A DNA stretch of 64,000 nucleotides from an uncultured virus (IMG/VR IMGVR_UViG_3300047560_001157) (Duplodnaviria; Heunggongvirae; Uroviricota; Caudoviricetes): the IMG/VR virus record IMGVR_UViG_3300047560_001157. The stretch is one strand, 5' to 3'. Within the stretch, counting starts at the first letter, position 1, and each line of letters starts with the position of its first letter. Shown one piece after another: positions 429 through 30,114 of this stretch. Made by a program: the position numbers and the translations under genes. The notes under the pieces are model-generated. The model was not told the origin of the DNA. It made no database searches and saw only the letters and a list, made by a program, of their open reading frames with translations.

Positions 429-432
429 GCAG

Positions 433-461
433 AAAAGTGTTGCAGAAATGCAACACTTTTT
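433..461 (+). terminator. intrinsic terminator (possibly bidirectional)
   Basis: Perfect 12-bp stem AAAAGTGTTGCA-GAAA-TGCAACACTTTT starting 5 nt after the stop at 428, with a GAAA loop, a T run 3' and an A run 5'. Confidence 0.75.
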
Positions 462-463
462 GG

Positions 464-492
464 TTGACCGTTTTGGCCCTTTTTGCTACAAT
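464..492 (+). promoter_or_regulatory. sigma70-type early promoter
   Basis: TTGACC (464-469), 17-nt spacer, TACAAT (487-492); SD AAGGAG at 511-516 before ATG 522. Confidence 0.75.
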
Positions 493-521
493 TACTCTAT
501 AGTAATTAAAAAGGAGCTAAA

Positions 522-800
522 ATGCAACACACCTCTGCACCCTCTTGCACTCTGTTTGCAAAAGTAACAGTCAAGCAACACCCTTACAGTCAACAACCCA
601 TTAGCATTTTAATAACTGCCGCAATGTATCCAAATTTTACTGCAAGCAAAGCTCTGTATTTCACAGAACTACCTCTACAAGTAACTACCATTGCCTGTAT
701 TCAAAATGCCATTGCTCGTTTGCAAAAACAAGCCAATGCCGCCGACGTCAGTGTTAAAGTACAACCTAAAGTTTCCAAACACATTGTCGCTGTCGCATAA
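522..800 (+). CDS. small early hypothetical protein (92 aa; no Gly or Trp)
   Basis: Has its own promoter and a strong SD; composition is unusual (see findings). Confidence 0.7.
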   Translation: MQHTSAPSCTLFAKVTVKQHPYSQQPISILITAAMYPNFTASKALYFTELPLQVTTIACIQNAIARLQKQANAADVSVKVQPKVSKHIVAVA

Positions 801-822
801 ACACAACACCTGCAAAAAGCGT

Positions 823-851
823 TTGACGTTAAATGCTTTCTGCAATATACT
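823..851 (+). promoter_or_regulatory. sigma70-type early promoter
   Basis: TTGACG (823-828), 17-nt spacer, TATACT (846-851); SD AGGAG at 887-891 before ATG 898. Confidence 0.75.
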
Positions 852-897
852 AACCCTGTAAACAATTTTTTCACGCTAACTTTTTTAGGAGTAAACA

Positions 898-2019
898 ATG
901 GCGGCACAGACTAGCGAAAATCGCACTATCACCGCAGTTGAGGCACGTAAGAGTATCCTTAGCTGTTTCAAAAATCAACGCCCTATCTTTCTTTGGGGTC
1001 CTCCCGGCATTGGTAAATCCGAACTGGTAGCAAGCATTACCGAAGAGCTCGGTGGCTTTATGATTGACTTGCGACTAGGTCAATGCGAACCCACAGACAT
1101 CCGTGGTATTCCATTCTTTAACAAAGACCTAGGCAAGATGGATTGGGCTCCTCCTATTGATTTGCCTGATGAAGAACTGGCCGGCCAGTATCCAGTGATC
1201 GTTCTATTCTTGGACGAGATGAACTCTGCACCTCCTGCTGTGCAGTCAGCCGCATACCAACTTATCTTGAACCGCCGTGTGGGCAAGTATGTGTTGCCTG
1301 CAAACGTGGTTATGGTTGCCGCTGGTAACCGTGAAAGCGATAAGGGTGTTACCTTCCGTATGCCTACTCCGCTTGCCAACCGTTTTGTTCACCAGGAGTT
1401 GCGTGTGGATCACGGTTCTTGGGAACAATGGGCTGTGAACAATAAAATTCACAAGGACGTGGTTGGTTACATTGGTTTTGCCAAGCAGGACCTGTACGAC
1501 TTTGATCCACGCTCTGCAAGCCGCACCTTTGCTACTCCACGTTCTTGGAGCTTCGTATCACAGTTCTGTGAAGACGAAGGCATCAGCGACGGCGAACTCA
1601 CTAACCTGATTGCAGGTACTGTGGGTGAAGGTATTGCCATCAAGTTTATGGCACACCGTAAGGTTGCAGGCAAGATGCCCAAGCCAGATGACGTGTTGTC
1701 TGGCAAGGTTACTACCTTGGACACCAAGGAAGTGTCAGCTCAGTACTCCTTGGCTGTTAGCCTGTGCTACACCTTGCAAGAACGTTTCATCGCTTGCAAA
1801 GGCGACAAGGCAGAGTTGGACAAATGGCATCCATTTGCTGACAACTTCTTGAAGTACATGATGGACAATTTCAACACTGAGTTGGTGGTTATGGGTTCTC
1901 GTATTGCACTCACTACCTACAACCTGCCGTTGATTCCCAACAAGCTCAAGAACTTCGACGAGTTCCACAAGCGTTTTGGTAAGTACATCTTGGCCGCAAG
2001 TGCTCGCGACAAGAGCTAA
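898..2019 (+). CDS. MoxR-like AAA+ ATPase
   Basis: Walker A GPPGIGKS, Walker B LFLDE, sensor AAGN, arginine finger PLANRF, sensor-2 TPRSW; adjacent to a vWA gene. Confidence 0.88.
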   Translation: MAAQTSENRTITAVEARKSILSCFKNQRPIFLWGPPGIGKSELVASITEELGGFMIDLRLGQCEPTDIRGIPFFNKDLGKMDWAPPIDLPDEELAGQYPVIVLFLDEMNSAPPAVQSAAYQLILNRRVGKYVLPANVVMVAAGNRESDKGVTFRMPTPLANRFVHQELRVDHGSWEQWAVNNKIHKDVVGYIGFAKQDLYDFDPRSASRTFATPRSWSFVSQFCEDEGISDGELTNLIAGTVGEGIAIKFMAHRKVAGKMPKPDDVLSGKVTTLDTKEVSAQYSLAVSLCYTLQERFIACKGDKAELDKWHPFADNFLKYMMDNFNTELVVMGSRIALTTYNLPLIPNKLKNFDEFHKRFGKYILAASARDKS

Positions 2020-5482: not shown

Positions 5483-5777
5483 TGTTGATGCGAGAGATCG
5501 TTGGAAACAGATATTAAAAACTGTAAGTAAAGATGAAGTGCCAGTTTCGTTACTTGAAAAAATTCATGTTAATTTAATAGATGGTAGCAAAGTTGAAATT
5601 GATATTTTGCAACTGTTAGATGAGGGTATGCACCCTGATGATATTAAAGATGAACTCAATGACAGATTAAAGAAGATGGACGAGATTATCAAAGACGTTG
5701 ACTTCTTTATCAGCATTGAAACTGTAGCTAAAACGGTACAACCAATTACCGACGATATTCTAAAATCTCTATCATGA
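5451..5777 (+). CDS. hypothetical protein (108 aa)
   Basis: ORF ends in an ATGA overlap with the DHFR start. Confidence 0.7.
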   Translation: MARKPKSRRINVDARDRWKQILKTVSKDEVPVSLLEKIHVNLIDGSKVEIDILQLLDEGMHPDDIKDELNDRLKKMDEIIKDVDFFISIETVAKTVQPITDDILKSLS

Positions 5778-6280
5778 TTCGTAGTATATTTTCCGTGGAT
5801 CAACGCGGTGGCTTAGGCCACCGCGGCAGTCTGCCCTGGGCCAATGACCCTGAGGATATGCAGTGGTTCAAGGAAGCAACAACAGGGCACGTTGTTGTGA
5901 TGGGTCGCAGAACATTTGAAGACCCTAAATTTCCTAAACCATTAAACAACAGAACATGTGTAGTATTCACTAACAAGAAATTTTTACCACATGCCCATGT
6001 TGTCAGTGGAGATCCAATTTCAGTTATTAAAAAGCTATCTGAAGAATACACAAGTAAAGATATCTGGATCATAGGCGGTGCAGAACTGCTGATGCAAACA
6101 AAAGATCTTTGCGACGAAATGTGGATTGCACATCGTAGGGGTGCGTACTATACAGATGTACGTGTAGACATGCACAAATACATGTTAGGCACCCGAATTA
6201 CTAGCTCTTTGCCTAACAAAAGTCGTACAATTAATTGGTGTACATATAAAAACGTAGACATATTCAGACCATACGTATGA
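5774..6280 (+). CDS. frd: dihydrofolate reductase
   Basis: GSLPW...EDMQWFK.ATTG.VVVMGRRTFE, PL.NR and IIGGA motifs; coupled to thymidylate synthase. Confidence 0.93.
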   Translation: MIRSIFSVDQRGGLGHRGSLPWANDPEDMQWFKEATTGHVVVMGRRTFEDPKFPKPLNNRTCVVFTNKKFLPHAHVVSGDPISVIKKLSEEYTSKDIWIIGGAELLMQTKDLCDEMWIAHRRGAYYTDVRVDMHKYMLGTRITSSLPNKSRTINWCTYKNVDIFRPYV

Positions 6281-7188
6281 AAACATATCTAGATGCACTC
6301 CGACAAGTATTAGAAACAGGTACAACTCGTTCTGACAGAACTGGGGTAGGAACCATTGGCTTGTTTGGCATGCAACAAAGATACAATCTCAGCCAAGGCT
6401 TTCCTGCTGTTACTACAAAAAAATTAGCATGGAAAAGTGTGGTCAGCGAGTTGCTGTGGTTCATTGAAGGGTCGGGGGACGAAAAACGCCTACGAGAGAT
6501 ACTACATGGTAGTAGGGATTCCAGTAAGGACACCATCTGGTCTGCAAATGCCACAGCATCCTATTGGAAACCAAAGGCCAAGTACGAAGGAGATCTAGGG
6601 CGTGTGTACGGTGTACAATGGCGTCACTGGCGTACCCCAGCTGAACAACGTGGCGGAAGTTTTACAAATGACTTTGGTCACACATACAGTGTACAAGGCG
6701 GCGTTACTATTACAGAAGTCGATCAGTTAAAGTCACTGATTGAGGGAATCAAAGCAGACCCATACGGACGAAGACATATATTAACAGCGTGGAACCCAGG
6801 CGAATTAGAAGCCATGGCTCTGCCACCGTGTCATTGCTTTGCTCAGTTTTACGTAGCTGAGGGCCGACTAAGTTGCCAAATGTATCAAAGAAGTTGCGAC
6901 ATGTTTTTAGGTGTCCCCTTTAATATCGCAAGCTACTCCCTTTTAACGGCGATGATAGCTCAAGTGTGCGGCCTAGCGGTCGGTGAGTTTGTTCATGTAC
7001 TCGGCGATGCACACATCTACCTAAACCATGTTGAACAGGTAAAAGAACAACTGTCACGTGAACCATTGCCTGCGCCAACTCTTTGGTTGAATCCAGACAT
7101 AACAGATATCACTCGTTTTACCATGGATGATATTCGTTTGGACAATTATCAAAGTCACGGCGCTATTGCTGCCGCAATGGCAGTATGA
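6277..7188 (+). CDS. thyA: thymidylate synthase
   Basis: DRTGVGT, ELLWF, YGVQWR, catalytic LPPCH, YQRSCD, PFNIASY and GDAHIY. Confidence 0.96.
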   Translation: MKTYLDALRQVLETGTTRSDRTGVGTIGLFGMQQRYNLSQGFPAVTTKKLAWKSVVSELLWFIEGSGDEKRLREILHGSRDSSKDTIWSANATASYWKPKAKYEGDLGRVYGVQWRHWRTPAEQRGGSFTNDFGHTYSVQGGVTITEVDQLKSLIEGIKADPYGRRHILTAWNPGELEAMALPPCHCFAQFYVAEGRLSCQMYQRSCDMFLGVPFNIASYSLLTAMIAQVCGLAVGEFVHVLGDAHIYLNHVEQVKEQLSREPLPAPTLWLNPDITDITRFTMDDIRLDNYQSHGAIAAAMAV

Positions 7189-8039: not shown

Positions 8040-8274
8040 AAGAATAATTTTTAGAGAATTTTTCATGGGCGATGTAGAGGATCCAGAACTCTATGCGGCC
8101 GCGCCTATTCTAGACTGGGAAAAGAGCGAACAAGGTCAGTGGGTAATGACACACGCAGTAGAGCAGCCAGAGTTTAGAATTGTACCATCAATGGAAACAT
8201 ATGGTTGGAAAGTAACCATATATGGCAAACTAAGCGAGCAAGATGAAATAATATTTAGGTTGAAATACACATGA
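8023..8274 (+). CDS. small hypothetical phage protein
   Basis: ATG 8023; ATGA overlap with the epimerase start. Confidence 0.65.
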   Translation: MQNQNKRIIFREFFMGDVEDPELYAAAPILDWEKSEQGQWVMTHAVEQPEFRIVPSMETYGWKVTIYGKLSEQDEIIFRLKYT

Positions 8275-9248
8275 CTATTTTAGTAACAGGTGGTTGTGGT
8301 CTTATTGGACACAATGTAGTAAGTCAGCTGGAGCAACTGGGCAAGCAAGTTGTTATTGCTGATACAAAAACAACTTACGGTATCATTCCACAGGATGAGA
8401 TTGATTACTTGATGACTGAAAGACGCAAGAGATTCACTTCGCCTATATACAGTGCCGACATTGAAAGCGACACCATGAGCTATCTGTGCCGCAAGCACAG
8501 CGTTGATACCATTGTACACATGGCCAGCTTTCCTAGACAAAAGGTTGTTAATGCTAATCCAAGGCTTGGCGCAAGAACCATGATGGAAGGCCTGCTGAAT
8601 CTACTGGAGTCAGCAAAAGAAAACAATGTAAAGAAATTTGTGTATATTTCTAGTTCAATGGTCTATGGTGACTTTGACAATGATGTTACAGAAAATGCAC
8701 CATGTAATCCAATTGGACAATATGGTATTATGAAACTTGCAGGAGAACACCTTGTTAAAGACTATGCTCGTCGTGGCTGTTTTGATTACACTATTATTCG
8801 CCCCTCTGCTGTATATGGCCCACTCGACGTGGAAGACCGGGTCGTTGCCAAATTTATGCTCACCGCAATGCGCGGAGGCACTCTTAATGTCAATGGTGCC
8901 GGCGAAACACTAGACTTTACCTACAGCGAAGATGCTGCCAAGGGCATTGTTGCCGCTACACTGGCTGAAACTGCAAATAATAAAACATACAACATCACCA
9001 AGAGTCATAGTGTCAGCTTGTTAGAAGCCGCTGAAAAGATTGTAAGCATTGTAGGACGTGGCACTATCAACGTGCGTGACAAAGATGCAGACTTTCCTAG
9101 CCGCGGGGCACTAAACATCAATGCCGCACGTGCAGACTTTGGCTTTGATCCGCAGGTGGATGTGGAAGAAGGCTTTCACAAATATCACGATTGGTTAAAG
9201 AACAGTACCTACTGGCAAAATAAACTAAATGAAGATTCCGTTCACTAA
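8271..9248 (+). CDS. NAD-dependent nucleotide-sugar epimerase/dehydratase (extended SDR)
   Basis: TGGCGLIG Rossmann motif, SSSMVYG, catalytic YGIMK (YxxxK) and VYGP. Confidence 0.9.
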   Translation: MTILVTGGCGLIGHNVVSQLEQLGKQVVIADTKTTYGIIPQDEIDYLMTERRKRFTSPIYSADIESDTMSYLCRKHSVDTIVHMASFPRQKVVNANPRLGARTMMEGLLNLLESAKENNVKKFVYISSSMVYGDFDNDVTENAPCNPIGQYGIMKLAGEHLVKDYARRGCFDYTIIRPSAVYGPLDVEDRVVAKFMLTAMRGGTLNVNGAGETLDFTYSEDAAKGIVAATLAETANNKTYNITKSHSVSLLEAAEKIVSIVGRGTINVRDKDADFPSRGALNINAARADFGFDPQVDVEEGFHKYHDWLKNSTYWQNKLNEDSVH

Positions 9249-10314
9249 TCTATTTCAACAGTATCTGGATTGTAAACCAGAAATTGATCGAGCTATTGCA
9301 GAAGTTATTGCCAGTAGCAGTTTCATTACAGGCCCAGATGTTAGCAAGTTTGAAACTGCATTTGCAAAATATGTAGGCGCCGAGGATTGTGCAAGCACAG
9401 GCTCGGGCACCACTGCATTACTATGCTCATTGAAGGCACTGGGTATTGGCCCAGGCGATGAAGTATTGACTACACCACATACGTTTGTTGCCACAACAGA
9501 AGCCATTGTCAGCGTGGGTGCTACTCCTGTGTTTGTGGACATTGATCCAGACACACATCTAATAGATCTAGTTAAGCTGGAATCAGCAATCACTGCCAAA
9601 ACTCGTGCTGTGTTGTTTGTATCCATATACGGACAAAACCCAGACATGGATGTGTTGCGAGATATTTGTAATCGTCACAAGATATTCATGGTAGAAGATG
9701 CCGCACACAGTCTAGGCAATACATTTCGTGGCAAGCCCATTGGTAGTCTAGCAGACATCACCTGCTTCTCATTCAATCCTGTCAAGAACCTGGGTGCAAT
9801 GGGTGATGCAGGTTGTGTTGTTGGTCCTAAGTATTACATGGATAGTGTACGCATGTATCGCGATCACGGACGCACAGGTCGTTACGACATTGTTGAAATA
9901 GGATACAATGCACGTATCGACAACATGCAGAGCAACATTGTGTTGGCCAAGCTGCCTAAACTGGCATCCTGGTTGGAACGCAAACGTAATATCTGTGCCT
10001 ACTACGATCGCAGACTTCACAAATTTGTTAAAACAGTAAAAATTCAACCTGGTAATGCACACAGTTACTATGTGTATGTGATACAAACTCCACGCAGAGA
10101 TGAATTAAAAGAATTCTTAGCCAGCAAAGGCATTGGAACCAACATACACTATGCAACCACAACTCATATGCAACCTGCGTATAAGCAATGGGCAACACCT
10201 TGCCCTGTGGCAGAACAGACTGTTAAAGAGATTCTAAGTTTGCCTTGCTGGCCCAGTATGAGCAATATTGAAATAGATTATGTAGCAGACAGCGTTGAGG
10301 AGTTCTTCAAATGA
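9229..10314 (+). CDS. DegT/DnrJ/EryC1/StrS-family PLP-dependent sugar aminotransferase
   Basis: SGTTAL, GIGPGDEV, GATPVFVDID, EDAAH, FSFNPVKNLGAMGDAG (PLP lysine) and LSLP. Confidence 0.93.
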   Translation: MKIPFTNLFQQYLDCKPEIDRAIAEVIASSSFITGPDVSKFETAFAKYVGAEDCASTGSGTTALLCSLKALGIGPGDEVLTTPHTFVATTEAIVSVGATPVFVDIDPDTHLIDLVKLESAITAKTRAVLFVSIYGQNPDMDVLRDICNRHKIFMVEDAAHSLGNTFRGKPIGSLADITCFSFNPVKNLGAMGDAGCVVGPKYYMDSVRMYRDHGRTGRYDIVEIGYNARIDNMQSNIVLAKLPKLASWLERKRNICAYYDRRLHKFVKTVKIQPGNAHSYYVYVIQTPRRDELKEFLASKGIGTNIHYATTTHMQPAYKQWATPCPVAEQTVKEILSLPCWPSMSNIEIDYVADSVEEFFK

Positions 10315-11204
10315 ACATGTGGTTGGTAGGTGCAGGCTACTGGGGTAGTAAACTATTAGATGATCTAAGCACACTAGGTGTTACTCCTAAAGTGATTGAT
10401 ATAAAGAATGGACAAAGCATAGAATCCATTACCACACTGGATCCAGTGATGCTGGCTACCCCGTTGTGGGAACATTTTGAGCAAGCCAAGTATCTATTGG
10501 CTCGCGGGCATGACTTGTATGTTGAAAAGCCACTGGCAGAGAATGCACCACAGATTGCAGAATTGTCAGGGCTGGTTAAACCTGGGCAGTTGCTCATGGT
10601 GGGACATTTGTTTGTACACCATCCACAACGAGCTGAAATCAAGGAATACATTCGTCAGGGCTGGATTGGTAAACTAAAACACATTTCCAGTCGTAGACTC
10701 AATTGGGGCATATATCAAACCCGTACAGATCCATTGCTGAGTCTAGCTGTACACGATATCAGCATTGTCCAACAGTTTGTAACTGAACGCATGACTGTGG
10801 ATTCTGTACAGACCTGGGACTACAGTAACAATCCAAAGAAGGATCGCTACCGCTTCAATGGTCATGCAGGCGACATAAGTTATGATATTGACGTGAGCTG
10901 GCACTGGCCTGTGCGTACACGTGAAACTATTTTCATGGGAACACAAGGACAGATTGTGTGGAATCAAGATACCAATGTGATCAAAGTATTGCGTAACAAG
11001 ATAGTAAAGAATCGCGCAGTCGCAGACGAAAAACCTATTTCAATCAACTACGGATATGAATTATCACCGTTGACCACAGAACTCAAACACTGGGTCGACT
11101 GCGTTTCCAATCGCTCTGCGCCTCTAACAAATTTGAATCAAGCATTGCAGGTGGCGTTGATAACCGACCAGGTTCGCCATAAAGCTCAACAAAATAATTC
11201 TTGA
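10311..11204 (+). CDS. Gfo/Idh/MocA-family NAD-dependent oxidoreductase (WlbA/WbpB/GnnA-like)
   Basis: VGAGYWG, ATP...H, YVEKP, LMVGH and LAVHD; coupled to the aminotransferase. Confidence 0.85.
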   Translation: MNMWLVGAGYWGSKLLDDLSTLGVTPKVIDIKNGQSIESITTLDPVMLATPLWEHFEQAKYLLARGHDLYVEKPLAENAPQIAELSGLVKPGQLLMVGHLFVHHPQRAEIKEYIRQGWIGKLKHISSRRLNWGIYQTRTDPLLSLAVHDISIVQQFVTERMTVDSVQTWDYSNNPKKDRYRFNGHAGDISYDIDVSWHWPVRTRETIFMGTQGQIVWNQDTNVIKVLRNKIVKNRAVADEKPISINYGYELSPLTTELKHWVDCVSNRSAPLTNLNQALQVALITDQVRHKAQQNNS

Positions 11205-12507: not shown

Positions 12508-13567
12508 CTTGATCTCTCCAGGTATAGTTGTAGTCGATCTTTGTGCTACCGCATTCAATTGATTGAATGTTTAGGTGCTGTTCCAGTATTCGCCAGACTT
12601 CTGCAGGATTTTCTGTGCCAAAGGATTTTAATATTTCCACTTGTCCAATTGGTGCGTAACCTAAACATAGATTTTCGTCATTGATATCAAACTGGTTATC
12701 AGCCAACCATTGACGGAAATCCTGCATCTGTTTGTCATGCCAGGGAAACTGTCCTTCAAGTAGATCTCGTCCCCATTCAATATCAAACTCGCCACTGTAG
12801 TATTTGAGATGTGTAATAGCTTCGCAGGTGGCAGTATCCAGCTTGGGTGCGTGTTCGTCGCGAAACACTTCAAACAGAGTTTTGCCTATTTGTGCCCAGT
12901 GCATGTAGACTTCGCCGAATCTTTTATTGTACGCATTCTGTTTGAACAACTGCTTGTGCTGTGATGTTAGTTCATAACGAGGTGCGCTGTGAAATGTTGT
13001 AATCTGACTTGGGCGTGTCCATTCAGGCAATAGCACGTGTTTTCTATAGCTTAGTATTAAACTTTCAATCTCATGACATACTGTGTTAAGATGTCCAATG
13101 GCTCTGCGTACATTGAAAGGAGCGTGTTTGTGATATGCACTTTCATTTTCAACTGTGCCCTGCAGCCTTTCAAAGTGATTGTGTATGCGATTCAGTATAT
13201 CGTGCTTGACGCTTAAAAACAAACTGCTGTCACTCATGCCCGGAGGCTTTGGGTACTCAGGTCCAAATCTTACTGCGTCTGGAACAAAGTGTTCTTCAAT
13301 CACATAAGGTTCTAGTCCGTATTGTTGCCAGTCGTGTAGGTTTATTTCTCTAATGGCATGGTTTAGTTTATTACACAAAAAGTCTAGGTCTCTTGGTGTG
13401 TTGGGAAAACCCAAGAAACAAAAGTTCTTGTTAAGCGTGAGCCCAGCTTTGAGTATGTTTTCTAATGCAACCAGCCAGTCACGTGCAAGCTGATTGTCAT
13501 GCGCTTTTATGGTGTAGTCAATGGTGCCGGTGTCGCTACTTAAAACTATTCTAACATCATGCATCAA
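12500..13567 (-). CDS. hypothetical protein (355 aa) within the radical SAM cluster
   Basis: Long ORF overlapping both neighbours; His/Glu-rich segments HNHFE and CHEIE; no family recognised. Confidence 0.75.
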   Translation of the reverse strand: MMHDVRIVLSSDTGTIDYTIKAHDNQLARDWLVALENILKAGLTLNKNFCFLGFPNTPRDLDFLCNKLNHAIREINLHDWQQYGLEPYVIEEHFVPDAVRFGPEYPKPPGMSDSSLFLSVKHDILNRIHNHFERLQGTVENESAYHKHAPFNVRRAIGHLNTVCHEIESLILSYRKHVLLPEWTRPSQITTFHSAPRYELTSQHKQLFKQNAYNKRFGEVYMHWAQIGKTLFEVFRDEHAPKLDTATCEAITHLKYYSGEFDIEWGRDLLEGQFPWHDKQMQDFRQWLADNQFDINDENLCLGYAPIGQVEILKSFGTENPAEVWRILEQHLNIQSIECGSTKIDYNYTWRDQDV

Positions 13568-14852
13568 TGCTTCTCCACCATTTGTGTACTTCTGGTCTTT
13601 GCTCTAATATCTTGTCCATTGTGATTGGCTGTGTGCGTATGCTTTCTAATTGTAACATACGTTGTTTTCCTTTTACAATGGCTTCGTTGTATGAGTCAGG
13701 CCATTGTTCAGCAAAGGTTGGTCTAGTTTTTAACTGGACCATCGTGTCACGTAGTGCGCCTTTATCAATGACGTGCAAGATTTCATCTACCCATTCATCC
13801 AATAGATGTCTGGGTAGTGCCAGCGGTGACATAACAATGTCCGGGCTAAAACTAAACACAACCTTTGCTAAAACATCTACGTCTAGTTCTCGTGCTAGAC
13901 GTTGTATATTTTCTACTTCAAACATGCCAGGCAAAGTAAGAGTAAAATCCAATCTCATTTGTCTGCGGTGCTGTTTTATTTCCAGTCCTTGTTTGAAGTT
14001 GTCTAACCATTGTTCGTAGTTTAATCCTGTGCGGATGTATTCGCCAATGGCGCCGGTTCCGTCGATACTCGCACATATCTGCCAATCTCGTAACCCAGAC
14101 AAAATATCTTTATAGAGATTCCAACCGTGATAAGAAACACGGCTAAGATTAGTATTATATCTAGCATAAACTTTGTGTCCATCTCCTAGTTCAATGATAC
14201 GGCGCATGTATTTCCAATGTTGTTCGTACATCAATGGTTCGCCACCAACCCAATAGACTTCTTCTACACGATGTTCTTCAACTGCACGTGCAAATTCTTG
14301 TTCAACAATGGTATCTTGAAACTGTGATATTTCTTTTCTCACTGCTGGTTGCATCCATGCATTTTTAGGATTAGTATGATCAATCATGTTGTGCTGGCGC
14401 TGTTCACTTTCCCAGGCACTGCTCAACATGTCGCCACACATGCGACATTTGAAATTGCAAAGGTTACTAAAACGATAGTCCCAGCTTACAGGCAACATGG
14501 TTGTTGTGCCGTCTGCGGCGGTGGATTCAATTACTTCATCCCATTTGTGACTAAACAATTGATTAAAGTAATCTCTATACACAGATGTATTCAACAGTTT
14601 GTCATTGCATACTTCGCACTCTGGTAGTGTTTCGCCGGCCATCATTCTACGTCTAACGGATTGCATGTGCTCACCGTTCCAGTGTTCGTCCAGTGTGATA
14701 GGTATGTATCGGCCAGTGCCGGCACTGGTGTCAATATACTGTTGAAAGTTCTGTGCAGGTTCGCGACTTGCACAACACATTCTACGTTCAGTCTGAGGAC
14801 TTAGGTATGTGTGTACCCATGGTGCCATGCAAAGATTCTTAGGCTTGTCCAT
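13557..14852 (-). CDS. radical SAM enzyme with N-terminal SPASM/twitch-like domain
   Basis: CNFKCRMC (CX3CX2C), GGEP, YNTN, SIDG and EYIR; N-terminal CMAPW..CC..CEVC. Confidence 0.9.
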   Translation of the reverse strand: MDKPKNLCMAPWVHTYLSPQTERRMCCASREPAQNFQQYIDTSAGTGRYIPITLDEHWNGEHMQSVRRRMMAGETLPECEVCNDKLLNTSVYRDYFNQLFSHKWDEVIESTAADGTTTMLPVSWDYRFSNLCNFKCRMCGDMLSSAWESEQRQHNMIDHTNPKNAWMQPAVRKEISQFQDTIVEQEFARAVEEHRVEEVYWVGGEPLMYEQHWKYMRRIIELGDGHKVYARYNTNLSRVSYHGWNLYKDILSGLRDWQICASIDGTGAIGEYIRTGLNYEQWLDNFKQGLEIKQHRRQMRLDFTLTLPGMFEVENIQRLARELDVDVLAKVVFSFSPDIVMSPLALPRHLLDEWVDEILHVIDKGALRDTMVQLKTRPTFAEQWPDSYNEAIVKGKQRMLQLESIRTQPITMDKILEQRPEVHKWWRSIDA

Positions 14853-16056
14853 AACCCATTGCCTTGGCTATTTCTGGATGTGTATCTACAAAGTTCTGTT
14901 TTCTGTATGCATCCATTTTTTTCATACGTGACACAAACTCTTGTCCATCACTGCCAGGACCTTGTTCTATAAAATTAATCACGTTTTGTATTTCATTTTT
15001 ATAAAAGTTAGTTCTCCAGTCAACAGACTTTAGTTTATCCAGCACCAGTGCTTTTGCATTGGGTGTCATGTACTGAATGTTCATATGGTCTGGACTGTGC
15101 AACATGTTAAAATAGATACTGCCAAAGGGTTTGGTATCTGCCCAGGTCAGTAGCTCATCTATATAGTAAACATTTTGAATGTTGATAGTAAAACACAGTT
15201 GCGTGGTAATGTTGGGTGCATGAGACTGTTTAGCAGAATGCACATCGTCAATGATCTTGTTTGCTAGACTCCACTTGGCACCGTATCTTTCAACTTCAAA
15301 ACGATCATGCACGTTGTCTATACTGAAAGCAATATCCACACGACCAAAATGATTCCATACCAGTGTGTGCTCACCTAGCTCTACCGTAGCATTGGTGTTG
15401 TAGTGTATGTCTATGTGATTGCTGTGACCTTCTTCAACTGCAAACTTCAGCAACTCCCAATGCTCTTGTATGAGCCAGGGCTCACCGCCTGTGAATTCTA
15501 TATACTTGATGTTGGGCAATAGACTTTTTAAGTTATCCCAAAATGTCAGTGTGGTGCGTGGCCATGCACCTTGTTTGAGCCAACGATATGCGCTGTGCTG
15601 TTTCTTGTCTCCGTGAGCTGAAGTTTTCATATCTTCTTCAGCCCATTTACTACTGCTCCAACTGCCGCATATACGACATTTTAGATTACAGATGTTGCCC
15701 AGCTTGAGATCCAAGAACCATAGTTGATTGGGTTTTTCATTGTACCAATCAATCTTGCTTTCTAAGTGGTGCAGTCTACGCTGACTGTGAATGCGTTTGC
15801 TGTCTTTGCCTGCACGTTCCTCGGTCCAGCATCTACTGCAAGTAGCAGGTTGTTCTCCTGCGAGAAACTGTTTGCGTAGGTTTTGCATGTACTGACTGTT
15901 GTAAGCATCTTCCAGTGTGGAGGTCAGCAGGTCGTACCTAGTACCATCATCATCAACGATTTCATCCTGTGCAAGACAGCACGGACGTATTGTTCCAATT
16001 GGACTGGCTTCAATGCTGATCCAAGGCAACATGCATATGGTTTTAGGTAATGTCAT
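14839..16056 (-). CDS. radical SAM enzyme with N-terminal SPASM/twitch-like domain
   Basis: CNLKCRIC, TGGEP and YNTN; N-terminal CMLPW..PCC..CSRCW. Confidence 0.9.
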   Translation of the reverse strand: MTLPKTICMLPWISIEASPIGTIRPCCLAQDEIVDDDGTRYDLLTSTLEDAYNSQYMQNLRKQFLAGEQPATCSRCWTEERAGKDSKRIHSQRRLHHLESKIDWYNEKPNQLWFLDLKLGNICNLKCRICGSWSSSKWAEEDMKTSAHGDKKQHSAYRWLKQGAWPRTTLTFWDNLKSLLPNIKYIEFTGGEPWLIQEHWELLKFAVEEGHSNHIDIHYNTNATVELGEHTLVWNHFGRVDIAFSIDNVHDRFEVERYGAKWSLANKIIDDVHSAKQSHAPNITTQLCFTINIQNVYYIDELLTWADTKPFGSIYFNMLHSPDHMNIQYMTPNAKALVLDKLKSVDWRTNFYKNEIQNVINFIEQGPGSDGQEFVSRMKKMDAYRKQNFVDTHPEIAKAMGYGQA

Positions 16057-17350
16057 ATTTTCTCAAACCTGCAAGCTCAGGGAATGTATCGTAAAAGTTT
16101 TCTCCACGCAGGTTATCTAACTCGTGTGTGCGTTTGAAAAATTCTTTGATGTATTTTTCAGTCTGGTCCTCGGCATCCATAAAACTTATCAGTCCATTGA
16201 ATCCGCTGGTAGCACGTGTGAGTTTGTCCTGTGGTGTTAGCCACTCCACATGCTCTTTGACTTTTTGTCGTATCTGGTCTTTGATTTCTTTGGGCAACAC
16301 ATCCACACGATACCACTCTGGGCTTTGTAGAATGTTGATGTTGATATCCTGTGGTTTGATCAATCCTAAATCAATCCATTCGCGATGAAAGTCTACAACG
16401 TGAAATGCATTAAAAATACTAACTGTGGCACTGATGTAAAAGTCCACGTTTGGACACACGGCCAACATGCGTTTTCTGTTTTCTACAATTTCTTCCCAGT
16501 CTGTACCTTTGCGAATGTACTCTGCACGACTGCCGCTGGCATCAAGACTTGCACCAACGCTGACTGATCTAAACTTCTTCCACAGTTCAAGTACGTCTTG
16601 GTCTTTATAGGCCAGTTTGCTAAAATTTGAATTGTAGATCAATCGCACATGAAACATTTCACGTTTGACCAGCTCATTGAGCAAGCGATAGTGTTCTTCC
16701 ATGATCAAGGGTTCGCCACCAGCAAAGTAGATTTGTTCTAGATGCGGAATATGCTCTTGCATCTGTTCCCACATGTCTTCTTCATGGCGACCAGCATACA
16801 TGATTCTTGGCTGGCGCTTTGGTCCAAACAACTTTACTTCATCGTTGTACCAGTTACTGCTGAAAATGCTACCACAACTGCGGCAACGGAAATTGCACAC
16901 ATTAGAAAAACGTATATCATAGTAGCGCAGTTCAAACCAATCCAAACTACCATCTTCATTTGTAGTATCTACAAGGCCAATGTTGTGTCCAAAGTTTTGA
17001 CTGCTACTGTGACGCATACTAACAAAGCCTGCTTTTTCCTGCTCATAGCAACGACCACACTCTCTGCTGGGTTTGCCATTAAGCATGTTTACACGCATCT
17101 TTCGCATGCCTTCGCTATTCCAGACTTCCTTCATTGTGTGTTCTTTTAGGTTGCCAATAGGCATATTGTACTCGCCCATACAGCAAGGATACGCACGACC
17201 ATCAGGAAAGGCGTGCATGTGCAACCATGGTATCATGCAAAAGTGTTTGTCTGTAGTCAGCAGGTCTTGATGCCGTTCCGGCATGTTGTGAAAGTCTCCA
17301 CGAATAGGAATTCGTGTGTTGTATGTGTAGTCCTTAGGGTATTTGCTCAT
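16043..17350 (-). CDS. radical SAM enzyme with N-terminal SPASM/twitch-like domain
   Basis: CNFRCRSC, AGGEP, YNSN and EYIR; N-terminal CMIPW..PCC..CGRC. Confidence 0.9.
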   Translation of the reverse strand: MSKYPKDYTYNTRIPIRGDFHNMPERHQDLLTTDKHFCMIPWLHMHAFPDGRAYPCCMGEYNMPIGNLKEHTMKEVWNSEGMRKMRVNMLNGKPSRECGRCYEQEKAGFVSMRHSSSQNFGHNIGLVDTTNEDGSLDWFELRYYDIRFSNVCNFRCRSCGSIFSSNWYNDEVKLFGPKRQPRIMYAGRHEEDMWEQMQEHIPHLEQIYFAGGEPLIMEEHYRLLNELVKREMFHVRLIYNSNFSKLAYKDQDVLELWKKFRSVSVGASLDASGSRAEYIRKGTDWEEIVENRKRMLAVCPNVDFYISATVSIFNAFHVVDFHREWIDLGLIKPQDININILQSPEWYRVDVLPKEIKDQIRQKVKEHVEWLTPQDKLTRATSGFNGLISFMDAEDQTEKYIKEFFKRTHELDNLRGENFYDTFPELAGLRKYDIT

Positions 17351-18671
17351 AGAATTCCTTAAACTCAGGGAAAGTATCTATAAAGTTCTTTCCTCTGCGT
17401 TGATCGTATTGTGTGTAAAACTGTTTGAAATCGTTACGCATTCTTGCCAAGTCAGGCCCCACAACTGGCTCTTGCAAATAGTCATGCAAGCGAGTCAGCT
17501 GATTGATTTCATGCTCGTGTAGCAGGCTATCGCCTTTGTAATCAACTATGAATCCTGCAATGCTTTTTGCATACCACTTGCGGTCTTCTAGTGGTAATAC
17601 ATACACACTCTGGAAACTCGGAAAGCGCAAGATATTGAAACTCATGCTAGGAAAGTCTCTACCATATGTTTTCTTCAATGCCATCATGTAAGACAAGAAC
17701 ACAGGTAATCCAGGCAAGCACAATGCGTTGATGGTACACATAACATGGAGACCACGTATGCCGCTTTGTGCAATCTTTTCTACATTGTCTAGCCATGCTT
17801 TCCAATCTAGGCCATCACGTATGTACTCTGCGTGTAGGCCAATTGATTCGCAACTAGTATAGATATCTAGCTCAATGCCCTGTGTTGACGCTAACAAACG
17901 GTCAACGTCCACTTCCTTGCCAAGGTTTGTGTTAATGGCTAGCCGTGTTTGGCTTTGTCCTTGGTTTTGTTTGAACCAGTCAATGAGTTGCCAGGTGTGT
18001 CCTGACATGAGTGGTTCTCCTCCAGTGATTCGGAGTTCTTTAAGACTCTTGTGGAGGTCTGATTCCCACCACTGGAAAAAAGCCTCCACATACGGATTAG
18101 TCTCACCGAATTTATAAAGTTGACTATGATCATGAGGGTGAGTGTAATGATTGCGCCCGTCTGATACCAAGTTAGTGTAGGGTCCGTTTTTACGTATGTC
18201 ATTAACCCAAGTACTACTAAAAGCAGGGTTACAATAACTGCAAGCAAACTGACAAGTTCTGTCAAAAGCAATTTCCAACGTGCGAAGGTTGACATTGTCT
18301 GTGGCTGGTTTTGTGTAAGCATTTTCTAAATCCTCATCTGAGTGTATTACTGTTTTGTACACACGGTCGGATATTGCATCCTTGTCCATGTCTTCAATCT
18401 TCCAGCAGTAGTCACAGCCTGCTGGTCGTTCGCCCCGTTGCATTTGCTCACGCTCAAATTTCTTTCTGGGCGTGTTGTGAATAGCACTGGGATTTGTTTT
18501 GATCTCTTCCGGATCAATTGCATGTGGCAATGGATGGTGACAACTGGTTGTCTGTCCACTGCCTAGCCAGATGGTAGCATTGTACCACTTGGCACCACAG
18601 AATGATTCACTCTTGATGTCAATCACTCTGCGTTTGTATTCTAAGTCTGTTTCGTTATTCTGTTTCGGCAT
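17334..18671 (-). CDS. radical SAM enzyme (second subfamily; His-containing N-terminal domain)
   Basis: CQFACSYC, TGGEP, NTN and EYIR; N-terminal CGAKW..SCHHP..CDYCW. Start taken at MPKQ 18671 (track start 18698). Confidence 0.88.
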   Translation of the reverse strand: MPKQNNETDLEYKRRVIDIKSESFCGAKWYNATIWLGSGQTTSCHHPLPHAIDPEEIKTNPSAIHNTPRKKFEREQMQRGERPAGCDYCWKIEDMDKDAISDRVYKTVIHSDEDLENAYTKPATDNVNLRTLEIAFDRTCQFACSYCNPAFSSTWVNDIRKNGPYTNLVSDGRNHYTHPHDHSQLYKFGETNPYVEAFFQWWESDLHKSLKELRITGGEPLMSGHTWQLIDWFKQNQGQSQTRLAINTNLGKEVDVDRLLASTQGIELDIYTSCESIGLHAEYIRDGLDWKAWLDNVEKIAQSGIRGLHVMCTINALCLPGLPVFLSYMMALKKTYGRDFPSMSFNILRFPSFQSVYVLPLEDRKWYAKSIAGFIVDYKGDSLLHEHEINQLTRLHDYLQEPVVGPDLARMRNDFKQFYTQYDQRRGKNFIDTFPEFKEFYEQIP

Positions 18672-29445: not shown

Positions 29446-30114
29446 TTATCCTATTGCACTGAGATTGGTTAGTGTCTGGATCCTCACGGTATAATCAATT
29501 TGAATCAAGCGGTTCAGTGACTTCTGCACTGGGTGGAAAATTACGTGTGTAAGCAATTTGCCTGCGCCTGCGGTGCCATCAATAGCACGTGCTTTGATAC
29601 CTAGTTCATCAAACGTATAGGTATCATTTAGTGTTGTACTGTTATCAAATACTGCTTGTGTTGCAGGCTCGCCGTAGTCTAGCAAACAAGTAATAATAAT
29701 GTCTGAGTAGGGGTTACCTGCAATATGACGCACCTGCATTTTGTTGTGAGCTACGTCTGCATTGTTGTTTGTGTCTGTGTCATCAATGATTTTGTAGTAC
29801 GTTGGGTTGTACAAATCAGCTGATTGGTTTGTAGTGTTTGGGGCAAGATATGTAATTACACCTGTGCTGTCAACAGCGGTACCGCCATTGCCAAAGTGCA
29901 TTTCATACATATACTGCTGGTCTCTGTGACTCAACGCATAAGCAATAGCTTCACTCATGTTTTCGTAGTGAATAGCATTTGGCTTGTCAATGAAAACTTC
30001 GCCGGTGGTTGGGTCGTGTATTTTGATGTGACCACGCACATAAATTCCAGCTGTGACATCTGGCAATTTGGCTTGATCTTGTTTTTCAAAAGGATTTCCA
30101 GACTGATCTTGCAT
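29446..30114 (-). CDS. baseplate/tail structural protein
   Basis: FGNGG, LDYGEP, FDELG, HVIFHPVQKS and IQIDYTVR; located in the tail module. Start uncertain (30114, 30138 or 30153). Confidence 0.65.
   Translation of the reverse strand: MQDQSGNPFEKQDQAKLPDVTAGIYVRGHIKIHDPTTGEVFIDKPNAIHYENMSEAIAYALSHRDQQYMYEMHFGNGGTAVDSTGVITYLAPNTTNQSADLYNPTYYKIIDDTDTNNNADVAHNKMQVRHIAGNPYSDIIITCLLDYGEPATQAVFDNSTTLNDTYTFDELGIKARAIDGTAGAGKLLTHVIFHPVQKSLNRLIQIDYTVRIQTLTNLSAIG

What the first reader, a model, noticed from the sequence alone, without database searches (positions are those of the whole stretch)
516..887. Strand-specific absence of GG and near-absence of GA across an early gene
Seen (hand count): between the SD at 511-516 and the SD at 887-891, the + strand has about 48 G residues, with 0 GG and only 3 GA (666, 744, and 825 inside the -35 box). 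The other 45 or so are GC or GT. CC and TC are common on the same strand, so the bias is one-sided and is not palindromic restriction-site avoidance. The protein accordingly has no Gly or Trp and one Asp and one Glu. The bias continues into the intergenic DNA, and flanking genes use GG/GA freely. Inference: (a) an mRNA evading a purine-context endoribonuclease (compare T4 RegB at GGAG) or internal SD-like sites; (b) a template strand purged of CC/TC, the contexts hit by APOBEC/DddA-type cytidine deaminases and UV; (c) evasion of a sequence-specific ssDNA-modifying toxin such as DarT. The gene is a candidate anti-defence or host-takeover factor.
Basis: partly seen in the sequence, partly recalled or inferred. 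Interest (0 to 1): 0.72.

Follow-up and report, generated by a model that had tools for sequence, protein, structure and literature searches.

The report
Phage gene purged of G-purine steps
A small early gene of a giant freshwater phage is written, in every relative found, with almost no G followed by A or G on its message strand, which points to a message built to be invisible to something that reads that two-letter step.

Summary
Window 516-887 (+) has 48 G, 0 GG and 3 GA. It is the most GpR-poor stretch of the window. The 92-aa ORF 522-800 carries only the 2 GpR that its Asp and Glu force.

Nine homologous DNA lineages were found, at 30-77% protein identity and 42-55% G+C. All keep GpR at or near the minimum their protein allows. 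Only 7 of 114 G-ending codons precede a purine, against 54% genome-wide. At four-fold sites G is about 1% before a purine and 27% before a pyrimidine. So G itself is not avoided, only the step. The same strand keeps CC/TC.

The gene is unique among 361 ORFs of related contigs and among 29 ORFs behind similar promoters. The whole protein family lacks Gly, Trp, Asp and Glu.

My best reading (about 0.4) is a message immune to a GpR-directed single-strand-RNA enzyme, CmdT-like or RNase-like, encoding a counter-defence or takeover protein. DNA-level and self-targeting readings remain open. The protein's function is unknown.

This scan noted GA/TC-purged early genes in other lake giant phages before, on both strands (e1-5766046, e1-5370425). 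Here only one strand is purged.

The parts
432..461 (+). Terminator-like hairpin (stem 432-444 / 449-461, U-run) that insulates the gene from upstream transcription
   Evidence: RNA fold -18.2 kcal/mol, z -5.45, 0 of 200 shuffles as good
464..492 (+). Sigma-70-like promoter P1: TTGACC, 17 nt, TACAAT, with TG before the -10 hexamer
   Evidence: 10 of 12 consensus matches. The same GGTTGAC...TTTTGCTAYAMT element stands before the homologues in L082, L083, L001, L103, L104 and L105. That it is an early promoter is inferred.
511..516 (+). Shine-Dalgarno AAGGAG. It holds the only GG on this strand from 476 to 887 and one of four GA.
   Evidence: Sequence and GpR positions. It is unpaired in the predicted fold of 499-560. 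AAGGAGC is conserved in homologues.
522..800 (+). 92-aa ORF of a conserved, unnamed phage protein family. GpR is kept to the 2 steps forced by Glu49 (GAA, 666) and Asp75 (GAC, 744). The stop codon is TAA.
   Evidence: 11 close homologues and 47 representatives at E<=1e-3. AF2 model with pLDDT 83.
801..886 (+). Intergenic stretch with one GpR, the GA of the -35 box at 825. It contains promoter P2 (823-851, TTGACG, 17 nt, TATACT) for the ATPase gene. No U-tailed terminator is present.
   Evidence: The GpR-poor state of this spacer is shared by L082, L083 and L001 but not by L103, L104, L105, L188 or L189.
887..2019 (+). Context: SD AGGAG (887-891) and the MoxR-like AAA ATPase gene (898-2019), where GpR use is normal (128 GpR, observed/expected 0.95)

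Best explanation
The message strand of this gene has been purged by selection of every avoidable G-purine step. I think the purpose is that its mRNA offers almost no substrate to an enzyme acting on single-stranded mRNA at GpR.

Candidate enzymes are an mRNA ADP-ribosyltransferase of the CmdT kind, which modifies the A of GA, or an endoribonuclease that cuts G|A or G|G. While ordinary messages carry about 30 such steps per 280 nt and are disabled, this one carries 2-3 and can go on being translated.

The small, basic, Gly/Asp/Glu-free protein it encodes would then be a counter-defence or host-takeover factor that has to be made under those conditions.

- Shown: the rule is real, strand-specific, frame-independent, specific to the dinucleotide, conserved, and confined to this gene family.
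For: 1. Dinucleotide-specific, not a shortage of G. At four-fold degenerate third positions of 7 lineages, G is about 1% when the next base is a purine (n=190) and 27% when it is a pyrimidine (n=113). The genome values are 9% and 19%. In L188 and L189, G is 0 of 26 and 0 of 29 before a purine, against 10 of 24 and 10 of 23 before a pyrimidine.

2. All three codon phases obey the rule.
- Positions 1-2: the family of 58 proteins has Gly 0.8%, Trp 0.0%, Asp 2.5% and Glu 3.2%. The Gly+Asp+Glu+Trp share of 2.2% is the lowest of 361 ORFs, whose median is 20.4%.
- Positions 2-3: 22 of 23 Arg codons are CGY. The stop codon is never TGA.
- Positions 3-1: after 78 G-ending codons the next base is C 46, T 29, G 3 and A 0. 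L188 and L189 add 2 of 18 each. Genome-wide, 9213 of 17060 G-ending codons precede a purine.

3. One strand only. CC+TC on the same strand is 33 against a minimum of 9, and is at or above expectation in most lineages. That points to a reader tied to the transcript or to transcription.

4. Extent. The zone runs from about the -10/start site through the CDS. The exceptions are elements that cannot be rewritten: the SD and the next promoter's -35.

5. Gene-specific. The 3 lowest of 361 ORFs in GpR density and in observed/expected are this gene and its homologues. No other island occurs in 329 kb. It is 1 gene of 29 behind similar promoters.

6. Deep conservation. The rule holds in 9 lineages down to 30% identity, in phages of 42-55% G+C.

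7. Precedent for such readers.
- CmdT modifies the A of GA in single-stranded RNA, gives faint products on other purine pairs, and defends against T-even phages (PMC11618068: abstract and passages read).
- B. subtilis RNase Y sites are most enriched for GA across the cut, in unstructured AU-rich RNA (bioRxiv 10.1101/2023.03.12.532304: passages read).
- MazF-type toxins have 2-5-nt motifs (PMC13107127: passages read).

8. The mRNA is predicted to be less folded than the first 279 nt of all 34 other genes tested (-46.9 against a mean of -67.7 kcal/mol), so it is exposed as single strand.

9. In the most distant lineage (L189) the next gene is a T4 Rnl1-type RNA ligase (PF09511, E 9e-27), an RNA-repair enzyme. 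This is weak support by neighbourhood.
Against: - No RNA-level datum exists. No RNA run holds the stretch, and the host and its defences are unknown.
- The SD (AAGGAG) keeps a GG and a GA, so the message is not fully immune.
- CmdT is essentially GA-specific, yet GG is banned almost as strictly. RNase Y's preference is weak: 63% of its sites lack GA.
- CmdTAC is triggered by a late capsid protein, whereas this gene looks early.
- The remaining forced GpR are not predicted to be more base-paired than GpY steps (0.78 against 0.75, P 0.22).
- Against synonymous recodings the low folding energy is only at the 10th percentile.
- The trait persists in phages that probably have different hosts. This needs either a widespread reader or a dedicated one.
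- The sequence cannot separate an RNA reader from a strand-specific DNA reader.
Confidence: 0.4

Rival explanations
1. Self-immunity or immunity to a phage partner. The reader of GpR is phage-encoded. It is either this small basic protein itself, acting as an RNA-binding or RNA-cutting factor for purine-rich, SD-like sites, or an enzyme it works with. The message is kept free of sites so that it is touched only at its SD, which would give autoregulation, or not at all.
For: The trait is tied to this one gene family across phages of 42-55% G+C and 30-77% identity. That is most simply explained if the selective agent travels with the gene. The protein is basic, with 7 Lys, 1 Arg, 1 Asp and 1 Glu. 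The confident small alpha/beta model has weak likeness to RNA-binding RNase-H-like modules such as uS11 and uL18 (Z <= 5.1). The only GG/GA cluster left in the message is the SD.
Against: Other phage genes are full of GpR (median 11.5 per 100 nt), so a phage-made GpR reader would hit the phage's own messages. No nuclease, ADP-ribosyltransferase or RNA-binding family matches. Conserved acidic catalytic residues are missing; only Glu49 is conserved. Fold matches are below the level the tool calls meaningful.
Confidence: 0.13
2. A DNA-level reader, in two forms. (i) The template strand is kept free of CC/TC so that a context-specific DNA-damaging agent cannot block or miscode transcription of a gene needed early. 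Candidates are a cytosine deaminase, DarT2 at TNTC, or (6-4) photoproducts. (ii) The non-template strand is kept free of GpR to escape the phage's own GA/GG-directed guanine replacement of the DpdA type.
For: The complement of the purge is exactly YC. TNTC occurs 0 times on the template strand of 499-800 and 5 times on the other strand. DarT2 targets TNTC in ssDNA (PMC11543638: passages read). DpdA enzymes with a strict GA motif or two motifs exist (PMC10484667: abstract; PMC7544227: title and abstract start; listing). Earlier notes of this scan report GA/TC-purged early genes in other lake giant phages and blame DpdA (e1-5766046 and e1-5370425; unchecked AI notes on other DNA).
Against: A dsDNA motif reader should purge both strands, as in those earlier notes. 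Here the template strand carries 33-46 GpR per gene (that is, YC on the + strand, at or above expectation). No TGT/DpdA family match was found in G001, G002 or G003, with the control ringing in 14 of 14 genomes, though these are fragments of 7-39% completeness. DarT2 would not require loss of CC or of TC outside TNTC, and DarT1 has no motif. Single-strand-specific enzymes see the non-template strand in a transcription bubble, not the template. Protecting 0.1% of a roughly 370-kb genome from genome-wide damage helps only if this gene encodes the antidote. TT, the commonest UV dimer site, is not avoided on the template strand (AA occurs 54 times on the + strand).
Confidence: 0.15
3. Translation-initiation hygiene. 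The message keeps a single purine-rich site (its SD) and bans all others. This would avoid pairing with the 16S anti-SD, binding of GGA-reading repressors (CsrA type), or cutting by a RegB-like GGAG nuclease anywhere but the SD.
For: All GG, and hence all GGA, GGAG and AGG, are absent from 517 to 887. A strong conserved SD AAGGAGC is present in the lineages of 42-44% G+C. The anti-SD is universal, which would fit the deep conservation.
Against: GA is banned at least as strictly as GG. After G-ending codons the next base is A 0 of 78 and G 3 of 78, where about 25% and 29% are expected. GAC, GAT and GAA have no SD, CsrA or RegB likeness, yet Asp and Glu are nearly eliminated family-wide. No RegB family match in G002 or G003, but that search's control rang nowhere, so it is uninformative. 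Other strongly promoted genes with the same SD type are not purged.
Confidence: 0.1
4. No dinucleotide selection at all. The pattern would be a by-product of an odd protein composition, a C-rich and G-poor unstructured or Rho-loading message, or a foreign codon usage.
For: Most of the raw signal in the window gene comes from amino-acid content. With its own codons kept, repositioning them gives P 0.21. The region has C 27% and G 13% and low predicted structure.
Against: G at silent sites is not avoided overall (10% against 12% in the genome) and is enriched before pyrimidines (27% against 19%). It is absent only before purines. Own-codon shuffles are significant in 8 other lineages. The binomial P for 3 of 78 is 4.6e-22. 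The bias is kept in lineages whose flanks differ in G+C, so it is not unameliorated foreign DNA.
Confidence: 0.03

Closest known systems
CmdT of the CmdTAC defence system (mRNA ADP-ribosyltransferase; PMC11618068)
   Same: It reads a G-purine dinucleotide (GA) in single-stranded mRNA, blocks translation, and acts against T4-like phages. Products on other purine pairs are faint. A GA-free message is what evasion would look like.
   Different: No CmdT, host or ADP-ribosylation is known here. GG is banned too. The SD keeps a GA. CmdT is released by a late capsid protein. No GA-free phage gene is mentioned in the passages I read.
Engineered ACA-less mRNAs in the MazF single-protein-production system
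   Same: A message stripped of a toxin's short target motif is the only one translated while the toxin is active. Basis: PMC9102682 abstract start in listing; the rest is recalled.
   Different: That is a laboratory design using synonymous changes for a 3-nt motif. Here a natural family avoids a 2-nt class, which required changing the protein's amino-acid make-up.
RNase Y cleavage preference (Bacillus subtilis; bioRxiv 10.1101/2023.03.12.532304)
   Same: This housekeeping decay-initiating endonuclease has sites most enriched for GA across the scissile bond, in unstructured AU-rich RNA.
   Different: The preference is weak (63% of sites lack GA). The host is unknown. Stability alone hardly justifies giving up Gly, Asp and Glu.
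DpdA-directed 7-deazaguanine replacement at GA (phage iggy) or GA+GGC (phage CAjan)
   Same: A phage enzyme that reads G-purine steps in DNA (PMC10484667 abstract; PMC7544227 title). Earlier notes of this scan link GA/TC-purged early genes of lake giant phages to it.
   Different: It acts on duplex DNA, so both strands should be purged; here only one is. No DpdA was found in the fragments at hand.
APOBEC3G/3F footprint in retroviruses (GG to AG, GA to AA); recalled, not read here
   Same: The same two dinucleotides are lost from one strand, and the sequence becomes A-rich.
   Different: That is a genome-wide mutational footprint. Here the loss is confined to one roughly 280-nt gene, is held at the minimum compatible with a conserved protein, and has no known deaminase.
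T4 RegB endoribonuclease at GGAG in early-gene SDs; recalled
   Same: A phage RNase that reads a purine motif in early messages. This gene's only GGAG is its SD.
   Different: RegB needs GGAG, not every GpR. A RegB family search found nothing, but its control also failed.

Membership tests
Message evading a CmdT-type GA-directed mRNA ADP-ribosyltransferase | GA absent from the translated, single-stranded part of the mRNA wherever the protein allows | tested here: met
   GA observed equals the minimum possible in 6 of 9 lineages and exceeds it by 1-2 in the other 3 (L083, L188, L189). 0 of 78 G-ending codons are followed by A.
Message evading a CmdT-type GA-directed mRNA ADP-ribosyltransferase | The avoided set matches the enzyme's specificity (GA only) | tested here: not met
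   GG is also avoided: 0-2 per gene against 3-4 expected. CmdT gave only faint products on GG.
Message evading a CmdT-type GA-directed mRNA ADP-ribosyltransferase | The host encodes such a toxin and the phage meets it | not testable with these tools
   The host is unknown. A genome-contig scan with the aminotransferase gave at most 43% identity in mixed phyla.
Palindromic restriction-site avoidance | Depletion symmetric on both strands | tested here: not met
   CC+TC on the + strand is 33 against a minimum of 9 and an expectation of 26. It is not depleted in any of 9 lineages by genome-usage resampling, except L104 (P 0.015).
Modification-free zone for a GA/GG-directed DpdA | A DpdA/TGT-family gene in the phage | tested here: inconclusive
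   0 of 3 related records matched PF01702, with the control ringing in 14 of 14. The records are 7-39% complete. No such ORF appeared among the window ORFs scanned.
Modification-free zone for a GA/GG-directed DpdA | Both strands of the zone free of the motif | tested here: not met
   The template strand carries the complement of 33-46 YC per gene.
RegB-type GGAG processing | regB homologue present | tested here: inconclusive
   No PF10715 match in G002 or G003, but the control genomes also gave nothing.
Rho-loading (C-rich, G-poor, unstructured) RNA | G avoided as such at silent sites | tested here: not met
   C is 27% and G 13%. But silent-site G is 27% before pyrimidines against 19% in the genome.
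Known protein families (Pfam, PHROGs) | Profile match above threshold | tested here: not met
   0 families in Pfam and PHROGs for the protein. No shared family among 34 members. The best PDB profile hit is the Lmo2119 protein, E 0.005 over 62 residues.
RNase H-like nucleases | beta-beta-beta-alpha-beta core plus a conserved acidic catalytic set | tested here: inconclusive
   Topology E10-19, E26-34, E46-51, H57-71, E75-80. Best matches have Z 5.1, rmsd 3.1-3.2, 71-73 aligned residues, below the tool's meaningful range. Only Glu49 is conserved among acidic residues.

The most novel reading that the evidence does not exclude
This is a natural 'stealth message'. A whole phage gene family has been rewritten, down to its amino-acid alphabet (no Gly or Trp, almost no Asp or Glu, Arg only as CGY), so that its mRNA lacks the G-purine step read by an mRNA-modifying or mRNA-cutting immune effector. 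Its product, the antidote or a takeover factor, is then the one protein still made after that effector has silenced translation. It would be the first natural case of immune evasion by target-free coding shaping a protein's composition. It would also give a sequence signature for finding both counter-defence genes and the specificity of unknown RNA-targeting defences.
Probability: 0.3. Interest if true: 0.9.

Novelty: new variant of a known kind. Interest (0 to 1): 0.76.

Why it matters
Avoidance of short target motifs is known for restriction sites and, in the laboratory, for toxin-resistant messages. Here one natural gene family avoids a two-letter class on one strand so thoroughly that the protein has given up four amino acids. 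The rule has held through divergence to 30% identity.

If it is a DNA-level or self-directed reader, it reveals an unknown strand-specific process in giant freshwater phages.

Either way the claim is directly testable by recoding one 279-nt gene. Similar scans for 'minimum-possible' dinucleotide use could be run over all phage genomes.

Tried and rejected
**Data that were not available**
- No whole genome is held for the window. I used related records G001-G003 instead.

**The protein**
- tblastn against 50,697 phage records found no relative; the best hit had E 0.8.
- Pfam and PHROGs gave no family. The ESM Atlas gave no usable hit.
- Fold searches: PDB Foldseek best E 0.024. VIA-align wide best Z 5.1, generic RNase-H-like modules. 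BFVD returned only uncharacterised phage proteins, best E 3.8e-4.
- The PDB profile search gave a marginal hit to the Lmo2119 protein, E 0.005. I did not follow it.

**Candidate readers and host**
- RegB search: no match, and the control was silent, so it is uninformative.
- DpdA/TGT search: no match in fragments.
- Host inference from the DegT aminotransferase gave at most 43% identity in mixed phyla, so no host call.

**Expression data**
- No RNA holder was listed for the stretch.
- Laying contigs of 4 runs covered the small gene with only a few near-identical contigs and gave no usable variants.

**RNA structure**
- Forced GpR are not more paired than GpY (P 0.22).
- The message is less folded than other genes, but sits only at the 10th percentile of synonymous recodings.

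**Other GpR-poor places**
- Other GpR-poor windows in ATPase loci (L072/L073, L037, L069) turned out to be the antisense of VWA/ATPase genes, that is, sense-strand YC depletion. That is a different thing.
- Only the first 50 kb of the 169-kb T4 genome were examined. The lowest GpR density among 103 minus-strand ORFs there is 7.9 per 100 nt, so nothing comparable.

**Searches for more homologues**
- P0017 and P0047 found nothing.
- P0025 only re-found the L103 contig.

**Earlier-findings look-ups**
- Look-ups by sequence found nothing, and nothing is recorded on this genome.

**Considered and set aside by argument**
- tRNA-cleaving defences would explain the missing amino acids but not the codon-junction rule.
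- UV dimers: TT is not avoided on the template strand.
- PAM avoidance is strand-blind for DNA targeting.
- I did not use complex prediction, because no binding claim is made.
Full report
**The observation.** Between the two Shine-Dalgarno sequences (516-887, + strand) there are 123 A, 102 T, 99 C and 48 G. There is no GG. The three GA are at 666, 744 and 825. GC occurs 26 times and GT 19. CC (21) and TC (17) remain common on the same strand. The region holds one ORF, 522-800, of 92 aa with no Gly or Trp and one each of Asp, Glu and Arg.

**The setting of the gene.**
- It stands behind a strong hairpin with a U-run at 432-461 (-18.2 kcal/mol, z -5.45).
- A sigma-70-like promoter follows at 464-492 (TTGACC, 17 nt, TACAAT).
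- The SD AAGGAG is at 511-516.
- A second promoter of the same type at 823-851 serves a MoxR-like AAA ATPase gene (898-2019), which is followed by a DUF2201 VWA/metallopeptidase gene.

**What kind of phage.** The window carries baseplate, tail-fibre and giant virion-protein genes, a gp55-like late sigma factor and SbcCD. So this is a T4-like myovirus. Related records are rated 7-39% complete at 26-144 kb, which implies a genome of roughly 370 kb. The runs that hold the stretch are freshwater or aquatic metagenomes. The host is unknown.

**Is it more than chance, in the window alone?**
- In a 372-nt sliding scan of both strands this is the most GpR-poor window (48 G, 3 GpR; naive binomial P 1.7e-9). 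The next best are 1.0e-6 and 1.8e-5.
- Among 48 base-by-class-by-strand combinations it ranks first. The second, a partial depletion, reaches 7.8e-9. Alone, the window is therefore notable but not overwhelming.
- Given the protein and the window's codon usage, 8.7 +/- 2.2 GpR are expected. Two are seen, which is the minimum the protein allows (P 4e-4).
- If the gene's own codons are kept and only moved among synonymous positions, the window gene is not significant (P 0.21), because it uses few G-ending codons at all.
- Much of the raw signal in this one sequence is therefore amino-acid content. Gly+Asp+Glu+Trp make up 2.2% of the protein, the lowest of 361 ORFs (median 20.4%).

**Homologues settle it.** The protein has 11 close relatives (65-87% identity) and 47 cluster representatives at E <= 1e-3 in 1.84 billion proteins. 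All are 56-105 aa and none has a name. I recovered DNA for nine lineages: window/L081, L082, L083, L001/L086, L103, L104, L105, L188 and L189. Among the first seven, pairwise identity is 35-77%. L188 and L189 belong to the P0033 branch, 30% identical to the window protein, in phage DNA of 54-55% G+C.

GpR observed against the minimum possible in each lineage:

| Lineage | Observed | Minimum |
|---|---|---|
| window | 2 | 2 |
| L082 | 3 | 3 |
| L083 | 5 | 4 |
| L001 | 5 | 5 |
| L103 | 11 | 9 |
| L104 | 5 | 4 |
| L105 | 4 | 4 |
| L188 | 3 | 1 |
| L189 | 5 | 3 |

- Own-codon shuffles give P 0.005, 2e-5, 2e-4, 0.012, 0.04 and 7e-4 for L082 to L105, and 2e-5 twice for L188 and L189. The Fisher combination over the first seven lineages is 1.2e-11. 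It overstates independence, since some codons are shared by descent.
- One near-copy of the L001 gene, L086 (97% identical), has three extra GpR. The rule can therefore relax locally, or that contig carries errors.

**What exactly is avoided.** The step G-then-purine is avoided on the message strand, in every codon phase.
- Phase 1-2: the 58 family proteins have Gly 0.8%, Trp 0.0%, Asp 2.5% and Glu 3.2%.
- Phase 2-3: 22 of 23 Arg codons are CGT or CGC. The stop codon is TAA in 7 lineages and TAG in 2, never TGA.
- Phase 3-1: after 78 G-ending codons in seven lineages the next base is C 46, T 29, G 3 and A 0 (binomial P 4.6e-22 against the genome-wide 54%). L188 and L189 add 2 of 18 each.

G itself is not avoided. 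At four-fold degenerate third positions G is 10% overall (genome 12%). It is about 1% when a purine follows (n=190; genome 9%) and 27% when a pyrimidine follows (n=113; genome 19%). In L188 and L189 it is 0 of 26 and 0 of 29 before a purine, against 10 of 24 and 10 of 23 before a pyrimidine. This removes 'G-poor, C-rich, unstructured or Rho-loading RNA' as the cause of the silent-site pattern.

The complementary step on the same strand, CC/TC, is not avoided. It is 33 observed against a minimum of 9 and an expectation of 26 in the window gene, and at or above expectation in most lineages. The rule is truly one-stranded.

**Where the zone starts and stops.** Upstream, GpR reappears in and before the -35 box, and in some lineages within a few bases after the -10 box, about where transcription should start. 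Inside the zone the only exceptions are the SD and, downstream, the -35 box of the next promoter. The spacer after the stop codon is GpR-poor in the window, L082, L083 and L001, but not in L103, L104, L105, L188 or L189. The constrained unit is therefore the 5' leader plus the coding sequence.

**How special the gene is.**
- Over 361 ORFs in the window and three related records (329 kb), the three lowest GpR densities and the three lowest observed/expected ratios are this gene and its homologues. The values are 0.73 per 100 nt and 0.21-0.45, against medians of 11.5 and 0.97.
- A sliding scan finds no other near-complete island.
- Of 29 ORFs that follow a TTGAC-N17-19-TANANT element, including some with a nearly identical promoter, only this gene is depleted; the others are at 0.76-1.15. 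So this is not a general feature of early genes.
- The first 50 kb of phage T4 has nothing like it: the lowest of 103 minus-strand ORFs has 7.9 per 100 nt. Only that part of T4 was examined.

**The protein.** AlphaFold2 on a 14-row alignment gives a confident small alpha/beta domain (pLDDT 83; strands 10-19, 26-34, 46-51, helix 57-71, strand 75-80). Structure searches give nothing that stands out:
- Foldseek against PDB, best E 0.024.
- VIA-align, best Z 5.1, to RNase-H-like modules of ribosomal proteins, kinases and retroviral polymerases.
- BFVD, only uncharacterised phage proteins.

No Pfam, PHROG or Atlas family fits. Synteny is partly conserved: an unnamed 140-aa gene, this gene, zero to two small genes, then the ATPase and VWA genes. 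In the most distant lineage the next gene is a T4 Rnl1-type RNA ligase.

**Explanation.** A rule that is frame-independent, dinucleotide-specific, confined to the message strand and confined to leader plus CDS points to something that reads the nucleic acid of this transcription unit in a strand-aware way. The simplest candidate is a factor acting on the single-stranded mRNA. Such readers of G-purine steps exist:
- CmdT ADP-ribosylates the A of GA in single-stranded RNA, blocks translation and defends against T-even phages (PMC11618068: abstract and passages).
- RNase Y sites in B. subtilis are most enriched for GA across the cut (bioRxiv 10.1101/2023.03.12.532304: passages).
- MazF-type toxins read 2-5-nt motifs (PMC13107127: passages).

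The message is also predicted to be unusually open (-46.9 against a mean of -67.7 kcal/mol for 34 other genes). A message with 2-3 instead of about 30 targets would outlast all others under such attack. This is the logic of the engineered ACA-less messages used with MazF. I therefore commit, at about 0.4, to 'a target-free message for a protein that must be made while a GpR-directed RNA activity is at work'. The protein would be a counter-defence or takeover factor.

**Results against this reading.**
- The SD keeps GG and GA.
- CmdT does not need GG to be absent.
- RNase Y's preference is weak.
- CmdTAC fires late in infection.
- Forced GpR are not hidden in predicted stems.
- Nothing is known of the host.

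**Rivals.**
- *A DNA-level reader (0.15).* In one form the template strand is freed of CC/TC against a deaminase, DarT2 (TNTC; PMC11543638 passages) or UV. In the other, the non-template strand is freed of GpR against the phage's own DpdA-type guanine replacement, whose GA motif is documented (PMC10484667 abstract; PMC7544227 title). Earlier notes of this scan describe GA/TC-purged early genes and promoters in other lake giant phages and favour DpdA (e1-5766046, e1-5370425). Those notes are unchecked, concern other DNA, and report purging of both strands. Here the template strand is full of GpR. No DpdA was found in the fragments at hand, and only one of 29 similarly promoted genes is affected.
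- *Initiation hygiene, meaning anti-SD, CsrA or RegB avoidance (0.1).* This explains GG but not the equally strict ban on GA in GAC, GAT and GAA.
- *A pure composition artefact (0.03).* This is contradicted.
- About 0.2 is left for mechanisms I have not thought of.

**Novelty and verdict.** Target-motif avoidance is a known kind of adaptation. A one-strand, two-letter-class purge of a single natural gene family, deep enough to remove four amino acids from the protein and stable down to 30% identity, is a new variant of it. I found no description in print in the searches I ran (terms 'GA dinucleotide'+phage+depleted; CmdTAC papers; ACA-less/MazF). These searches cover open-access papers and bioRxiv only. 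The finding is real, the mechanism is open, and one recoding experiment would decide between the main readings.

Noticed in passing
window 13557-20025 (-), also 61703-62590 (+): Five consecutive radical-SAM genes of 404-455 aa, two of them with SPASM domains. One has a weak QueE-like PHROG hit (E 2.6e-6). A sixth radical-SAM gene lies beside SbcCD. Their substrate is unknown; peptide, sugar or base chemistry are all possible.
   Followed up: no
window 8271-11204 (+): A sugar-modification trio: NAD-dependent epimerase/dehydratase, DegT/DnrJ aminotransferase (E 4e-107) and a GFO/IDH/MocA-like oxidoreductase. They sit next to ThyA (6277-7188) and DHFR (5774-6280).
   Followed up: partly
window 30562-42966 and 42967-48822 (-): Two adjacent giant virion-protein genes (4133 aa and 1950 aa). 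Both match the same PHROG (phrog_10938) and a head-closure-like repeat region.
   Followed up: no
L072 4503-5768, L037 5483-6760, L069 2992-4086 and 4529-5812: In other phages the VWA/metallopeptidase and AAA ATPase genes show the mirror image: sense-strand CC/TC depletion, with odds 0.30-0.60 against 0.7-1.1 in neighbouring genes. The strongest part covers the first ~165 nt of the L072 VWA gene plus its leader (44 G and 1 GpR on the antisense strand). The window's own copies are not depleted (odds 0.83-0.87).
   Followed up: partly
L001, L082, L083, L103, L104, L105 upstream of the small gene; G002 25248, 27228, 44174: A highly conserved promoter cassette, GGTTGAC(C)...TTTTGCTAYAMT followed by AAAAGGAGC. 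It recurs before several unrelated genes of these phages and may be their standard early expression signal.
   Followed up: partly
L086 1501-1767: A 97%-identical copy of the L001 gene has three extra G-purine steps: one synonymous CAG|ATT, one Ser-to-Arg AGG, and one Glu-to-Gly GGA. This is a possible relaxed lineage or contig error.
   Followed up: no
family CDSs (window, L082, L083, L001, L103, L104, L105): Where Glu is kept, GAG is used in 10 of 17 codons although the window's genes use GAG for 19% of Glu. It is always followed by a pyrimidine, except in two cases.
   Followed up: no
L189 1536-2666 (and the same place in L188): In a 54-55% G+C phage, a T4 Rnl1-type RNA ligase gene (PF09511, E 9e-27, plus the Rnl1 C-terminal domain) directly follows the most distant GpR-free family member.
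   Followed up: partly
G001 29845-30084 (+): A partial G-purine depletion (62 G, 10 GpR, naive P 2e-8) in the nearest related record. I did not examine it further.
   Followed up: no
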